Shown in pieces: positions 5,737 to 55,934 of a DNA stretch of 64,000 nt (positions are counted from its first letter, which is position 1; every line of letters starts with the position of its first letter). The DNA is from a virus. The notes beneath the pieces were generated by a model. That model saw only the letters and a program-made list of their open reading frames with translations. It was not told the DNA's origin and ran no database searches. The position numbers were made by a program, and so were the translations under genes. The stretch spans positions 10,271 to 74,270 of IMG/VR virus record IMGVR_UViG_3300009502_000041; one strand, given 5' to 3'.

Positions 5737-5775
5737 AAACAAACCACAAATAATTTATATATTTGTGGTTTGTTT
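5737..5775 (+). terminator. Hairpin/terminator after the tube gene; overlaps a TATATTTG host-type promoter element
   Basis: AAACAAACCACAAATA-loop-TATTTGTGGTTTGTTT. Confidence 0.75.
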
Positions 5776-5784
5776 TTATATATT

Positions 5785-7281
5785 ATGAATAAATCAGAAT
5801 TGCAAGAATATTTTTTATCAAATAATAAGTCTGGTCATAAAACCAACGAAAGGTGGTTGTCGGTTAACAATACCTTGTTGTATAACGAAATTGTTGATAA
5901 ATATAAAAGCATTGTAGCCACTTTTAGTGAGAAAGTATGTCTATATGTTAATGGTTTAAATGATGTTCCTAAATGTCCTAATTGTGACAAGAACGTAAAA
6001 TACAACGGTACTCTTCGTAAGGGATATAATAAATATTGCTCGATTAAATGTCTAAATTCATCTGAAGAACATAAAAAATTGATAATAGCCTCTAATAATC
6101 TTAAGTACGGTGTTGATAGTCATAACCAAACAGAGTTGGTTAAATATAAGAAGAAAGAAACTTCATTAAAAAATTACGGTGTTGATAATCCAATGAAGTG
6201 TAATAAAATTTCGTTAAAACAAAAAACAACTTTACTTGATAAATATAACGTTACTAACCCAATGAACATTGGTTCGGTTATTAACAATAGAATAGACAAT
6301 GTTATTAACGGAACTGAGCTTAATATTCAAAGAATGTTAAACAGGATAACAGATACAAGCATTAAATTCATAAAACACGATAGTAATAAAAATGTGTTTT
6401 TTCATTGTAATAAGTGTAATGCCGACTTTAATTTAAATAGCAACTTATTAACATCAAGAATAGCAAACAATACGACAATATGTACAAACTGTAATAAAAA
6501 CAAATCATATAGTAACATTTTGCTACAATTAACCACATTCTTAGATTCAATTAACATTAATTATATTATTAATGATAGGAAAATATTAAAAGGCAAAGAA
6601 CTTGATATCTATCTTCCTGATCATAAATTAGGAATTGAGATTAATGGTTTGTATTGGCACAGCAATAAATATAAAAGAAATAATTATCATTTAAATAAAA
6701 CAAAATTGTGTGATGCCAATGGCGTGAAACTTTTACATTTTTTTGAAGATGAAATATTGGGTAAAATAGATGTTGTTAAAAAGATAATATTAAATAAAAT
6801 CAATGATAAAATAGAAGAAAATATTTATATTATTAAAGAAGTTAATAATATTGAGCTAACGAACAAATTTTTATTAGAAAACACTTTAAGTCTTAATGAT
6901 TATTCTGACATTAAAATAGGTGCTTTTAAAAATGATAATTTAGTTTCGTTAATGCAATTTAATAAAAGTAAAAGCATTGACGAATATAAATTATCTGGAT
7001 TAAATATAGAGAATTGTGCCGAACACACATTAAGATATTTTATCGATAATTATTCGCCAAAATCAATAATAGTTTTTAATGACAGAAGGTTTTTAAATAA
7101 TATTTATGAAAACTTGGGGTTTAAAATTATTAAAAATACGAAACCTAAATATCGCTATATTATATCTGGAAAGTTTAAAAGGTATTTACGATCTGAATTG
7201 ACTGAAACCGAATTAAAATCCAATGGTTTGCATAAAATTTATGATTGTGGTTCGGTTAAGATGAAATTAACAATTAATTAG
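5785..7281 (+). CDS. Hef-like free-standing homing endonuclease (Zn ribbon, KYGV repeats, Vsr/PD-(D/E)XK domain)
   Basis: CPNC...YCSIKC, KYGV/NYGV repeats, ELDIYLPDHKLGIEINGLYWHS, C-terminal IYDCG; first ATG at 5785. Confidence 0.85.
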   Translation: MNKSELQEYFLSNNKSGHKTNERWLSVNNTLLYNEIVDKYKSIVATFSEKVCLYVNGLNDVPKCPNCDKNVKYNGTLRKGYNKYCSIKCLNSSEEHKKLIIASNNLKYGVDSHNQTELVKYKKKETSLKNYGVDNPMKCNKISLKQKTTLLDKYNVTNPMNIGSVINNRIDNVINGTELNIQRMLNRITDTSIKFIKHDSNKNVFFHCNKCNADFNLNSNLLTSRIANNTTICTNCNKNKSYSNILLQLTTFLDSININYIINDRKILKGKELDIYLPDHKLGIEINGLYWHSNKYKRNNYHLNKTKLCDANGVKLLHFFEDEILGKIDVVKKIILNKINDKIEENIYIIKEVNNIELTNKFLLENTLSLNDYSDIKIGAFKNDNLVSLMQFNKSKSIDEYKLSGLNIENCAEHTLRYFIDNYSPKSIIVFNDRRFLNNIYENLGFKIIKNTKPKYRYIISGKFKRYLRSELTETELKSNGLHKIYDCGSVKMKLTIN

Positions 7282-18969: not shown

Positions 18970-20577
18970 TTAGTTAATATTTAATATAAATTTACTTTTA
19001 CCACAGTCAAATATTTTTAAATATTTATTATTTATATCTTGTTCTTTGTCATTATTAAAAACCTGTATTTCTTTTTTATTATATCTCGTTAATCCACTTG
19101 ATTTAAAATAGTAATAATCTGGCTTGGTATTATTTAAAAAACTAAAACCGAGTTGTTTTAATAAACTATCATTTGAATATCTTCTATCCGAAAAAGTTAT
19201 AATTGACTTTGGTTGATATGTTATAATAAAATAATTTAATAACTTACTTGCACCATCAACTACATAATGATTGATCTTATTACAAATATTAATCATTTTA
19301 TATTCATTCTTATTAGTTTTTTTAAATGATATTAAAAAAACTAATTCATCATCATTATATAACCCAAAATTTAATTTAGATTTAGTATAATCGTGAATAT
19401 TATTTTCATTTAGAAATATTTTAGACTTATCAGAATTAATATTATTAATAACACAATCCTCACTAAATATTTTACTGTTAAATATGTTTAATTTTGATTT
19501 AATTATACTTTTAACAATTTCTTTTTTAAAAACCCACTCATCTTCAAAAACATGTAATAATTGAATTTCTTTTTTCTCACATAATTCTGTTTTATTTAAA
19601 TGGTATTTATTATTTTTATATATGCTAGAGTGCCAATATAAACCATCAAATTCAACTCCTAACCTGCTTTCAGGTATGTAAATATCAATTTCTTTATTAT
19701 TTAAAATTGTTTTATTTTTTTCTGTTTTAAGTTTTAAATCATTTTCTATAAATGATTTAATTTCATCTTCTTTAAGCGAAGAATTATTTCCAACTGGATT
19801 GCATATTATACAAGGATTTTCACATTTTCCTAAAATAACTCTCCAATAAAATACTTTTTTATTTATGGTATATTCACTATGTATTTTACACTGATTTTTA
19901 ATTAAATAATTATTGTTACCATTATTAGTAATTATTACATCTTTACCCATAATGTCGGCAGATAATTTAATTGTATTTTTTGTTTGATTTATTATTGATT
20001 TATTTTTAATGTTAATATTTTTCATTGGGTGAGATACTCCGTAATTTTCAAATAAGGTCTTTTTTATTTTATTTTTAACCAAAGGAGATTGTGATGGATA
20101 ATTAACACCTAAGTTTTTTTGATTTGTTTGAATTACTTTATTTTTAATTTCTTTTGATTGTGAAATATGTTCAACCCCATATTTTTTAATTAAACTATTT
20201 TTTATTTTGTTTTTAACGTCTGCATTTTGAAAAACACAATTGCTACCATATTTTATATTATTGGTGCTTTTTATTCTATTTTTAATATTATTATCATTAT
20301 TAATACATTCATTTGAGCAATATCTAAAATATTTGTTATTGGTATTACCCCAATTTACATTCTTATTACAAACTGGGCATACTGGTATTTTTATTATATT
20401 ATTTACATAATTAAATAATTTCTGTTTAAAACTAAAATTATTTGAAAAATATAATAAATCATGTATATTTATTTCATCATAATTTATATTATGGTGTGAT
20501 TTAATATAACTTTCACGACAAACATTAGGGTTTTTATTATTTTTAATTAAAAAAATAAATTCTTCTTTATTTATCAT
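18970..20577 (-). CDS. Hef-like free-standing homing endonuclease
   Basis: CPVC..YCSNEC, KYG repeats, EIDIYIPESRLGVEFDGLYWHS, FEDEW, SDRRYS, IFDCG; paralog of the gene at 5785. Confidence 0.87.
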   Translation of the reverse strand: MINKEEFIFLIKNNKNPNVCRESYIKSHHNINYDEINIHDLLYFSNNFSFKQKLFNYVNNIIKIPVCPVCNKNVNWGNTNNKYFRYCSNECINNDNNIKNRIKSTNNIKYGSNCVFQNADVKNKIKNSLIKKYGVEHISQSKEIKNKVIQTNQKNLGVNYPSQSPLVKNKIKKTLFENYGVSHPMKNINIKNKSIINQTKNTIKLSADIMGKDVIITNNGNNNYLIKNQCKIHSEYTINKKVFYWRVILGKCENPCIICNPVGNNSSLKEDEIKSFIENDLKLKTEKNKTILNNKEIDIYIPESRLGVEFDGLYWHSSIYKNNKYHLNKTELCEKKEIQLLHVFEDEWVFKKEIVKSIIKSKLNIFNSKIFSEDCVINNINSDKSKIFLNENNIHDYTKSKLNFGLYNDDELVFLISFKKTNKNEYKMINICNKINHYVVDGASKLLNYFIITYQPKSIITFSDRRYSNDSLLKQLGFSFLNNTKPDYYYFKSSGLTRYNKKEIQVFNNDKEQDINNKYLKIFDCGKSKFILNIN

Positions 20578-55459: not shown

Positions 55460-55519
55460 TTTTTATAAAATAATGTGACATTTATAAAGTTAATGTGTAT
55501 TTATGGTTTAAAGATATAT

Positions 55520-55610
55520 TGCGTTGTGGAGAAGTTGGTCATCTCGCCTGTCTCATAAGCACGGAGTTCCCTAACTAGGATTTACGGCTGTTCGAATCAG
55601 CCCAACGCTA
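55520..55610 (+). tRNA. trnM: tRNA-Met(CAT), initiator-like, with a long variable arm
   Basis: Acceptor GCGTTG/CAACGC with 1:72 mismatch, D arm GAG/CTC, CTCATAA loop (anticodon 55554-55556), T arm GGCTG-TTCGAAT-CAGCC; CCA not encoded. Confidence 0.85.
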
Positions 55611-55612
55611 CA

Positions 55613-55801
55613 AAATTAACTACGAAAAAGGAGTAGATGGTGAAGCTGGGAGAGCAGTGACTCAACGGTGTCACACTAAGGATAGGTAGAAATACCCAAC
55701 TCTCTAATGGTGTGTGAAGCCCATATACATTGCCCGAAAGGATAAACAATGGTGTATCTGGCAAGCCAGATACCTAATAAAAGCCATCAAGTAGTTAATT
55801 T
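55613..55801 (+). ncRNA. Unidentified multi-branched structured RNA (~190 nt)
   Basis: 11-bp closing helix AAATTAACTAC/GTAGTTAATTT enclosing at least six helices, two with GAAA tetraloops; no ORF. Confidence 0.7.
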
Positions 55802-55822: not shown

Positions 55823-55857
55823 AAAACCTCAAAGGATAATTTTCCTATGAGGTTTTT
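55823..55857 (+). terminator. Intrinsic terminator of the tRNA-ncRNA transcript
   Basis: AAAACCTCA-AAGGA...TCCT-ATGAGGTTTTT. Confidence 0.75.
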
Positions 55858-55934
55858 ATGTTTATTAATAAATTTAATGGGTTTGTTCTGTATTTATAGT
55901 AAATAATATAACAAGCAATTAAATATAAAATAAT

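What the first reader, a model, noticed from the sequence alone, without database searches (positions are those of the whole stretch)
55613..55801. Unidentified ~190-nt highly structured RNA co-transcribed with a tRNA
Seen: the element starts 2 nt after the tRNA discriminator and is closed by an 11-bp helix (55613-55623/55791-55801). Inside are GATGGT/GCCATC, GGAGAG/CTCTCT enclosing GTGAC/GTCAC and GGTA-GAAA-TACC, then GTGTGTG/CATATAC, CATTG/CAATG around CC-GAAA-GG, and GTATCTGG/CCAGATAC. It is much more GC-rich than the genome, has G-U pairs in the plus-strand sense, and is bracketed by a GTATTTAT promoter (55497) and a terminator (55823). I cannot match it to tmRNA, RNase P, SRP, 6S or a self-cleaving ribozyme. 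Inference: a discrete late phage ncRNA released by tRNA processing.
Basis: partly seen in the sequence, partly recalled or inferred. Interest (0 to 1): 0.75.

Follow-up and report, generated by a model that had tools for sequence, protein, structure and literature searches.

The report
New pseudoknotted RNA in phage tRNA operons
The flagged stretch is a real gene for a folded, multiply knotted non-coding RNA of about 190 bases, from a family of at least 96 copies that sits mostly in the tRNA gene rows of uncultured phages of Bacteroidota, is in no RNA catalogue searched, and has an unknown function.

Summary
The element at 55613-55801 (+) is real. It belongs to a conserved structured-RNA family with 96 model-confirmed loci and 77 distinct sequences. 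Thirty-five base pairs in six helices are 95.9% paired across the family, and 27 of them show compensatory changes. It missed three crossing helices (Pa, Pb, PK), and three of its local helices are not conserved.

No Rfam 15 family matches at E<=10. T4 rnaC/rnaD are not homologous. None of 50,697 cultured-phage records holds it.

Context:
- In most viral loci the RNA fills a "tRNA slot": 25 of 77 have a same-strand tRNA directly on both sides (0-4 nt before and 3-8 nt after P1 in the 45 loci inspected), and 46 have one within 12 nt downstream.
- A few copies lie between protein genes.
- Others are stand-alone terminated genes in Bacteroidales genomes.

Relatives appear in river RNA libraries.

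Best reading: a stable RNA cut out of the tRNA transcript by tRNA-processing enzymes, which binds an unknown partner in trans. A ribozyme, an aptamer or a cis-acting stability module are not excluded. This scan had already noted look-alikes of this family on other DNA; those were first-reader notes without follow-up.

The parts
55497..55504 (+). GTATTTAT promoter-like motif, 16 nt before the tRNA
   Evidence: The motif occurs 23 times in the window against 10.7 +/- 3.1 in shuffles, mostly just upstream of ORF starts. It recurs at 55890 before the next gene. Its function is inferred.
55520..55610 (+). tRNA(CAU) with a 1:72 U-U mismatch and a variable arm of about 21 nt; no encoded CCA
   Evidence: Rfam tRNA 41.6 bits, E 1.9e-7; ARAGORN. 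The arm shows a compensatory U-A to C-G change in L002.
55613..55623 (+). P1 5' strand (closing helix, pairs with 55791-55801)
   Evidence: All 8 modelled pairs covary and 94.9% of cells are paired.
55631..55634 (+). Pa 5' strand GAGU (pairs with ACUC at 55660-55663; crosses P2)
   Evidence: The central pair is C-G in 54, A-U in 10 and U-A in 6 sequences. Found by the all-against-all covariation scan. This is the weakest helix, at 85.9% paired.
55636..55641 (+). P2 5' strand GAUGGU (pairs with GCCAUC at 55783-55788)
   Evidence: 6 of 6 pairs covary and 99.3% of cells are paired.
55645..55648 (+). Pb 5' strand GCUG (pairs with CAGU at 55655-55658; closes the P3 5' strand as a 6-nt loop)
   Evidence: 4 of 4 pairs covary, for example U-A 42 / G-C 29 and G-C 40 / U-A 24. 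It is the local minimum-energy hairpin in 38 of 59 distinct segments.
55649..55654 (+). P3 5' strand GGAGAG (pairs with CUCUCU at 55700-55705); the first pair is a near-invariant G-U
   Evidence: 5 of 6 pairs covary. The first pair is G-U in 72 of 77 sequences.
55655..55663 (+). Pb 3' strand (55655-58), G, Pa 3' strand (55660-63)
55664..55684 (+). Conserved core: AACGG, the PK 5' strand UG(U)CACAC at 55669-55676, then UAAGGAUA
   Evidence: The family consensus CgcAAgGGUaCACACUaAG is 97% or more conserved at the capital letters. PK covaries in L091 (UGAACAC with GUGUUCG).
55685..55696 (+). P3a, an optional GNRA-capped hairpin GGUA-GAAA-UACC
   Evidence: Present in many members and absent in others. 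G-C changes to A-U in L002. Loops are GAAA, GUAA and similar.
55700..55716 (+). P3 3' strand CUCUCU, linker AAUG, PK 3' strand GUGUGUG (55710-55716)
   Evidence: PK is 99.6% paired, and 2 of 7 pairs covary.
55719..55762 (+). P4, a variable hairpin. Here it is GCC/GGC, AUAUAC/GUGUAU, AUUG/CAAU and CC-GAAA-GG
   Evidence: The segment between PK and GAUUCC is 12-62 nt and folds as one hairpin in nearly all of the 44 foldable sequences of A5, often GNRA-capped.
55769..55782 (+). Conserved 3' junction GAUACCUAAUAAAA (family consensus GAUuCcugAuAAA)
   Evidence: consensus. It is unpaired in the model.
55783..55801 (+). P2 3' strand (55783-88), AA, P1 3' strand (55791-55801)
55823..55861 (+). Intrinsic terminator: stem 55823-55856 followed by a U run
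   Evidence: -19 kcal/mol, z -4.7, and none of 200 shuffles folds as well. Compensatory changes in L002.

Best explanation
55613-55801 encodes one member of an uncatalogued family of compact structured RNAs. Members span 107-245 nt from P1 to P1, with a median of 153. They are carried mainly by uncultured phages of Bacteroidota.

Shown here:
- A conserved architecture in which the closing helices P1 and P2 enclose a core.
- In that core, a small hairpin (Pa plus Pb) presents two of its loops to distant strands.
- This forms P2, P3 and a further 7-bp pseudoknot (PK) around about 35 near-invariant unpaired bases.
- There are two variable, often GNRA-capped, peripheral hairpins (P3a, P4).

Inferred:
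- In this window the RNA is transcribed with tRNA(CAU) from the GTATTTAT promoter and ends at the terminator at 55823.
- Endonucleolytic 3' processing of the CCA-less tRNA (RNase Z type) frees its 5' end.
- In tRNA arrays, RNase P cutting at the next tRNA frees the 3' end.
- The result is a stable RNA with both ends locked in P1.
- It then acts in trans by binding a specific partner with its invariant core. The partner is most likely a protein or RNP of tRNA metabolism, translation or tRNA-targeting host defence.

The identity of the partner is unknown. My confidence that this is a real, conserved, pseudoknotted RNA family is about 0.95. The figure given in the confidence field is for the whole chain, including excision and action in trans.
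For: Structure:
- 35 pairs are 95.9% paired in 77 distinct sequences, against 75.5% in shuffles and 32-52% when the partners are slid.
- 27 pairs have changes on both sides. The 9- and 45-sequence sets give the same result.

Novelty:
- No Rfam hit at E<=10 for the window or for four relatives.
- No hit of the model on T4 rnaC/rnaD.
- No blastn hit in cultured phages.

Excision:
- 61 of 77 loci have tRNAs within 1.5 kb, and 41 have five or more.
- All 412 of those tRNAs lie on the element's strand.
- 30 loci have a tRNA within 10 nt upstream, 46 have one within 12 nt downstream, and 25 have both.
- In the 45 loci inspected the gaps are 0-4 nt upstream and 3-8 nt downstream, and the upstream tRNAs lack CCA.
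- There is one copy per locus and one copy in a complete 340-kb phage.

Action independent of the flanks:
- Members lie between ORFs (L091).
- Members also occur as stand-alone genes with terminators in Bacteroidales genomes.

Expression hint: contigs of 149-200 nt from four river metatranscriptomes carry close relatives of the core.
Against: - No transcript ends, stability, partner or phenotype have been observed.
- The RNA-library evidence consists of assembled contigs of relatives, not reads of this phage.
- Clustering of neighbouring ORFs found no recurrent protein gene, so nothing points to a protein partner.
- So intricate an invariant core is as typical of ribozymes and aptamers as of protein-binding RNAs.
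- Pa/Pb and P2/P3 might be alternative rather than simultaneous folds.
Confidence: 0.55

Rival explanations
1. It is a ribozyme. Either it is self-cleaving, helping to cut the tRNA transcript as HDV-like theta ribozymes do next to phage tRNAs, or it is a trans-acting catalytic RNA.
For: - The core is multi-pseudoknotted, with many invariant unpaired bases.
- The strand order P3 5' - PK 5' - P3a hairpin - P3 3' - PK 3' resembles the nested double pseudoknot of HDV-like ribozymes.
- The first P3 pair is G-U in 72 of 77 sequences, as at the HDV cleavage site.
- Precedent: theta ribozymes abut phage tRNAs (PMC10879173).
- P1 starts 0-4 nt after upstream tRNAs.
Against: - No HDV, twister, hatchet, pistol or hammerhead model hits at E<=10.
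- The P4 hairpin lies after the P2-equivalent strand, not before it.
- The linker where the catalytic C would sit is A/U-AUG.
- A cut at the base of P3 would fall in the middle of the RNA.
- There is only one copy per array of up to 26 tRNAs, and some members have no tRNA nearby.
Confidence: 0.12
2. It is a small-molecule aptamer. Either it is a riboswitch acting on the terminator or the next gene, or it is a free RNA that sequesters a metabolite or signalling nucleotide.
For: - Its size, junction-plus-pseudoknot build and invariant pocket-like core are typical of aptamers.
- Two covarying and possibly exclusive pairing sets (Pa/Pb against P2/P3) could be a switch.
- In the window, L148, L142 and L154 a terminator follows P1 directly.
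- In L091 an ORF starts 25 nt after it.
Against: - Most members are inside tRNA arrays, with a tRNA 3-8 nt after P1, which leaves no room for an expression platform.
- In the window the next gene has its own GTATTTAT motif after the terminator.
- Downstream genes are unrelated among loci.
Confidence: 0.1
3. It is a cis-acting transcript module. It would be a knotted structure that blocks exonucleases or insulates the folding and processing of neighbouring tRNAs and mRNA segments, with no role once released.
For: - It occurs at the 3' end of operons (window, Bacteroidales 3' regions) and between cistrons (L091).
- The knotted topology recalls exonuclease-resistant RNAs.
Against: - About 35 invariant unpaired bases across very different phages are more than a mechanical block needs.
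- There is one copy per array.
- Ordinary terminator hairpins already follow it.
Confidence: 0.12
4. It is not an RNA gene but a chance inverted repeat, a protein-coding remnant or a DNA-level site.
For: - The fold z-score is similar on both strands (-3.4 and -2.9).
- A 55-aa ORF lies on the minus strand.
Against: - Compensatory changes occur in 27 pairs.
- G-U pairs make sense only on the plus strand.
- All 412 tRNAs are on the same strand.
- 96 loci are confirmed.
Confidence: 0.01

Closest known systems
Phage T4 small stable RNAs, species 1 (rnaC) and species 2 (rnaD)
   Same: They are encoded in a phage tRNA gene cluster on the tRNA strand, abut tRNA genes, and are released with the tRNAs. 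Their biological roles are unknown (annotation in AF158101; PMC3014915). The window's phage is a distant T4-like myovirus.
   Different: There is no homology. The family model scores nothing on the T4 region with filters off. T4 rnaC ends in a tRNA-like T arm. This family has a closed multi-pseudoknot fold.
HDV-like theta ribozymes next to phage tRNAs (Kienbeck et al. 2024, PMC10879173)
   Same: They are structured RNAs placed directly beside phage tRNAs, and they are pseudoknotted. A G-U wobble sits at the base of the helix that corresponds to HDV P1.
   Different: - This family is three to four times larger.
- The helix order does not fit the HDV fold.
- No cytosine sits in the equivalent linker.
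- There is one copy per array.
- Some members have no tRNA nearby.
- No Rfam ribozyme model hits.
GOLLD and ROOL large ornate RNAs (Rfam; PMC12286853)
   Same: They are phage-borne, often near tRNAs, known from lake and gut metagenomes, intricately folded, and of unknown function.
   Different: They are 500-800 nt and form homo-oligomers. Their Rfam models do not hit this element. Homology was tested only through those models.
THF-I riboswitch aptamer (recalled from memory, a lead only)
   Same: It shares an 11-nt string (GAGUAGAUGAU in the L043-type members), GUGUGUG/CACAC complements and a three-way-junction-with-pseudoknot build.
   Different: The Rfam THF model does not hit at E<=10. The CACAC and GUGUG strands come in the opposite order. 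The context is not a 5' leader of folate genes.

Membership tests
Any Rfam 15 family | Covariance-model match at or near the gathering score | tested here: not met
   There are 0 matches at gathering score in the whole window. At E<=10 only chance-level hits touch the flanks, both in the window and in four relatives.
T4 rnaC/rnaD-type stable RNAs | Encoded in a phage tRNA cluster on the same strand, abutting tRNAs | tested here: met
T4 rnaC/rnaD-type stable RNAs | Sequence and structure homology to rnaC or rnaD | tested here: not met
   cmsearch with filters off on AF158101 69500-74000 found no hit at rnaC or rnaD.
HDV-like (theta) ribozymes | Nested double pseudoknot in the order P1-P2-P3-P1'-P4-P2' | tested here: not met
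   The order here is P3-PK-P3a-P3'-PK'-P4. The hairpin follows the P2-equivalent strand.
HDV-like (theta) ribozymes | G-U wobble closing P1 at the cleavage site | tested here: met
   The first P3 pair is G-U in 72 of 77 sequences. This is a resemblance only.
HDV-like (theta) ribozymes | Catalytic cytosine in the strand before P2' | tested here: not met
   The linker consensus is nAUG, where n is A, U or G.
HDV-like (theta) ribozymes | Self-scission | not testable with these tools
   This needs an in-vitro transcription and cleavage assay.
Riboswitch | 5' leader position with an expression platform before a recurrent class of genes | tested here: not met
   Most copies lie between tRNAs with 3-8 nt to the next tRNA. 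Downstream genes are unrelated.
Riboswitch | Ligand binding | not testable with these tools
   This needs in-line probing or calorimetry.
   The covarying structure is a branched, pseudoknotted core and not a rod. The 6S models do not hit.
GOLLD / ROOL | Match to the family model; size 500-800 nt | tested here: not met
   There is no hit. Members are 107-245 nt.

The most novel reading that the evidence does not exclude
The RNA is a new functional class, either a ribozyme or a high-affinity aptamer or decoy, that Bacteroidota phages express from tRNA arrays. After excision by RNase Z and RNase P, its 5'-phosphate and 3'-hydroxyl ends, held together by P1, are sealed by an RNA ligase into a circle of about 170 nt.

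The lead is a single 200-nt contig in a river RNA library. Its first and last 30 letters are the same part of the core, which gives a 170-nt cycle with no room for a tRNA. All four near-complete element-bearing phage genomes encode RNA ligases, but so do two of four element-free relatives.
Probability: 0.12. Interest if true: 0.9.

Novelty: new variant of a known kind. Interest (0 to 1): 0.62.

Why it matters
Small stable RNAs in phage tRNA clusters have been known since T4's species 1 and 2 RNAs, and their roles are still unexplained. This family is a widespread and far more intricate example. It has a six-helix fold with three crossing helices and an invariant core, the kind of complexity that in bacteria has usually meant a ribozyme, an aptamer or a ribonucleoprotein scaffold.

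It is carried by phages with large tRNA arrays, which are now seen as tools against tRNA-targeting defences. A role in that conflict or in translation takeover is therefore worth testing.

A copy in a cultured isolate (Dysgonomonas sp. 521) makes experiments possible without first isolating a phage. A 77-sequence covarying alignment is ready for structure determination and for a catalogue entry.

Tried and rejected
- **Rfam.** Gathering threshold on the whole window and E<=10 on the region and on four relatives gave nothing.
- **Cultured phages.** blastn of three family members against 50,697 records found only tRNA or chance hits.
- **T4 rnaC/rnaD.** Fetched and searched with the model; no homology.
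- **Close relatives of the window's phage.** The 64 loci found through the upstream 310-aa gene mostly have the tRNA(CAU) but not the element. Only L002 and L043 have it. Four of five large related records lack it.
- **Hammerhead.** CUGAUGA occurs only in L071. Elsewhere the motif is CUGAUAA, which lacks the G needed in the hammerhead core. Rejected.
- **11-nt GAAA receptor (CCUAAG/UAUGG).** The UAAG and UAUGG strings are there, but the register has an extra G. Rejected by eye.
- **THF riboswitch.** A resemblance recalled from memory; no model hit and the strand order is reversed.
- **RNase P, tmRNA, SRP, 6S, Y RNA.** No model hits. The strand order does not fit RNase P P4.
- **Neighbour-protein clustering.** In 45 loci there is no recurrent real protein family; most "families" are antisense translations of tRNAs.
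- **Flanking ORFs of L091 and the Bacteroidales loci.** PHROGs and Pfam gave DUF5053, HTH_3, AAA_15, a PglZ response regulator and unknowns, with no common theme.
- **Bacteroidales sample.** A search of 151 genomes of the order of Dysgonomonas sp. 521 found only the seed genome. The RNA is not a housekeeping RNA there.
- **RNA ligase co-occurrence.** Ligases are present in 4 of 4 near-complete positive genomes but also in 2 of 4 negatives, so this is uninformative.
- **RNA-library contigs.** They cover only 55672-55725 of this window, because they come from relatives. They say nothing about ends, strand or abundance for this phage.

Full report
**Observation.**
- ARAGORN and the Rfam tRNA model place a tRNA(CAU) at 55520-55610/11. 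It is 91-92 nt long because of a variable arm of about 21 nt.
- The element begins two bases later with an 11-bp helix, 55613-55623 with 55791-55801.
- Folded alone, the plus strand gives -52.3 kcal/mol (z -3.4) and the minus strand z -2.9. Thermodynamics alone is therefore weak evidence.
- The element has 40.7% G+C in a window of 29.8%.
- GTATTTAT is over-represented (23 against 10.7 expected) and usually lies just before ORFs.
- A good terminator hairpin follows at 55823-55856.
- Rfam 15 has no match, even at E<=10.

**Finding relatives.**
- The upstream 310-aa gene led to 64 related viral loci. Most have the tRNA(CAU), but only L002 (94% identical) and L043 have the element.
- Conserved-motif scans added L066, L091 and metagenome members.
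- Laying river metatranscriptome contigs on the window showed relatives whose flank reads UGUCGCAAGGGUA. A pattern allowing for that variant found 48 further viral loci, every one confirmed by the covariance model. A second pattern found 37 more loci, 34 of them confirmed by the model.
- The total is 96 confirmed loci and 77 distinct sequences (alignment A6).
- Three blastn searches of 50,697 cultured-phage records found nothing.
- A scan of one genome per prokaryote species gave five true hits, all Bacteroidota. One is a Schleiferiaceae contig with a tRNA array. The others are Tannerella, Tannerellaceae and Ca. Symbiothrix MAGs and the isolate Dysgonomonas sp. 521.
- Of 151 sampled genomes of that isolate's order, only the isolate itself has it. 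In bacteria it is therefore sporadic and probably carried by mobile elements.

**Structure.** An all-against-all covariation scan then revealed further helices:
- Pb: 55645-48 with 55655-58. This closes the P3 5' strand as a six-base loop.
- Pa: 55631-34 with 55660-63. This crosses P2.
- PK: a 7-bp pseudoknot, 55669-76 with 55710-16. It is confirmed by a double compensatory change in L091.

On 77 distinct sequences, the 35 pairs are 95.9% paired. Shuffles give 75.5%, and sliding the partners gives 32-52%. Twenty-seven pairs change on both sides.

The first P3 pair is G-U in 72 of 77 sequences. P4 is a hairpin region of 12-62 nt, often GNRA-capped.

About 35 unpaired bases are near-invariant: GUAG, CGCAAGGGU, CUAAG, AUGG and GAUUCCUGAUAAA.

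They compete with the conserved helices, and one is broken in L002.

Pa plus Pb form a small hairpin whose internal and apical loops are the 5' strands of P2 and P3. The two sets may coexist as a knotted fold. Alternatively, Pa/Pb may be a folding intermediate or an alternative state. I could not decide between these.

**Context.**
- In 61 of 77 distinct loci there are tRNAs within 1.5 kb, and in 41 there are five or more.
- All 412 of those tRNAs are on the element's strand.
- Thirty loci have a tRNA within 10 nt upstream, 46 have one within 12 nt downstream, and 25 have both.
- In the 45 loci inspected, the gaps are 0-4 nt upstream and 3-8 nt downstream of P1, and the upstream tRNAs lack an encoded CCA.
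- There is one copy per locus, and one in a complete 340-kb phage.
- By established knowledge of tRNA maturation, RNase Z-type cleavage after the discriminator and RNase P cleavage at the next tRNA would leave an RNA with a 5' phosphate and a 3' hydroxyl, closed by P1.

Some members differ. L091 lies between two ORFs with no tRNA within 14 kb. The Bacteroidales copies are stand-alone genes with their own terminators, beside DUF5053, HTH, AAA_15 ATPase or PglZ genes. The RNA's function therefore does not depend on flanking tRNAs. No protein gene recurs beside it.

**What it is and how it may work.** It is a new family of compact pseudoknotted RNAs of Bacteroidota phages. This window's phage is a distant T4-like myovirus whose sheath is nearest to those of a Microcystis phage and a Flavobacterium phage.

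I favour a stable, excised RNA that binds a partner in trans (0.55 for the whole chain). A ribozyme (0.12), an aptamer (0.10) and a cis-acting stability or processing module (0.12) remain open.

The helix order resembles an HDV-like double pseudoknot, with a G-U at the base. It fails two defining features: the position of P4, and a cytosine in the linker. It also fails all ribozyme models.

**An unexplained lead.** One 200-nt contig in an RNA library begins and ends with the same 30 letters of the core. That is a 170-nt cycle, which could be a circularised RNA or two abutting copies. Abutting copies were never seen in DNA. RNA ligases are present in all four near-complete positive phage genomes but also in negative ones. 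I rate circularisation as possible but not shown.

**Comparison and novelty.** The closest known things by behaviour are T4's rnaC and rnaD, small RNAs from the T4 tRNA region whose roles are unknown (PMC3014915). There is no homology to them. Theta ribozymes (PMC10879173) and GOLLD/ROOL (PMC12286853) share the phage-tRNA neighbourhood but neither the fold nor the size.

Earlier first-reader notes of this scan describe look-alikes in other genomes, always in tRNA arrays. None had been followed up. Follow-ups of other tRNA-slot RNAs reached similar conclusions for different families. I found no paper describing this family, though the library searched is incomplete.

Noticed in passing
window 55520-55610: The tRNA(CAU) has a U1-U72 mismatch, which is initiator-like. 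L043's 75-nt version also keeps it. It has an irregular anticodon stem and a variable arm of about 21 nt with a 7-nt loop. The arm shows a compensatory change in L002. In related phages the same tRNA is 73-92 nt long.
   Followed up: partly
L043 4376-4534; also L066, L074, L056, L030, L057, L008, L010, L062, L035 and others: A second conserved structured block of about 150 nt ('RNA X', with the covarying helix UGAUGC/GCAUCA changing to UGAUGU/ACAUCA) follows the tRNA(CAU) in many relatives of this phage. It sits between the tRNA and the element where both exist. It is absent from the window. There was no Rfam hit in L076, which contains it.
   Followed up: partly
run X15, record 2: A 200-nt contig from an RNA library has the same first and last 30 letters, which are the core of the element. 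This is a 170-nt cycle, meaning either a circular RNA or abutting tandem copies.
   Followed up: partly
L038 4180-4255, L057 4274-4348, L071 830-911; L095 and L112: Related phages carry tRNAs with UCA anticodons (which would read TGA) or CUA anticodons (which would read TAG) near the element. This hints at stop-codon suppression or recoding in some of these phages.
   Followed up: no
window, 23 sites including 1378, 17816, 20786, 23823, 29177, 42933, 55497, 55890: GTATTTAT is twice as frequent as expected and usually lies 10-75 nt before ORF starts, so it is a candidate promoter element of this phage.
   Followed up: partly
L077 275-340: There is a sub-threshold match (36 bits; gathering score 56) to the Bacteroidetes FopS sRNA family just upstream of that locus's copy of the element. 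This fits a Bacteroidota host.
   Followed up: no
L154 665-2387: In a Tannerella MAG the element, with its terminator, is followed on the same strand by an AAA_15/AAA_21 ATPase gene and a 173-aa ORF, a pair that looks defence-like. In Ca. Symbiothrix it faces a PglZ-domain response regulator.
   Followed up: no
window 5770-7281 and 18970-20577: Two large homing-endonuclease-like genes (phrog_3339 / HNH) lie among the structural genes.
   Followed up: no
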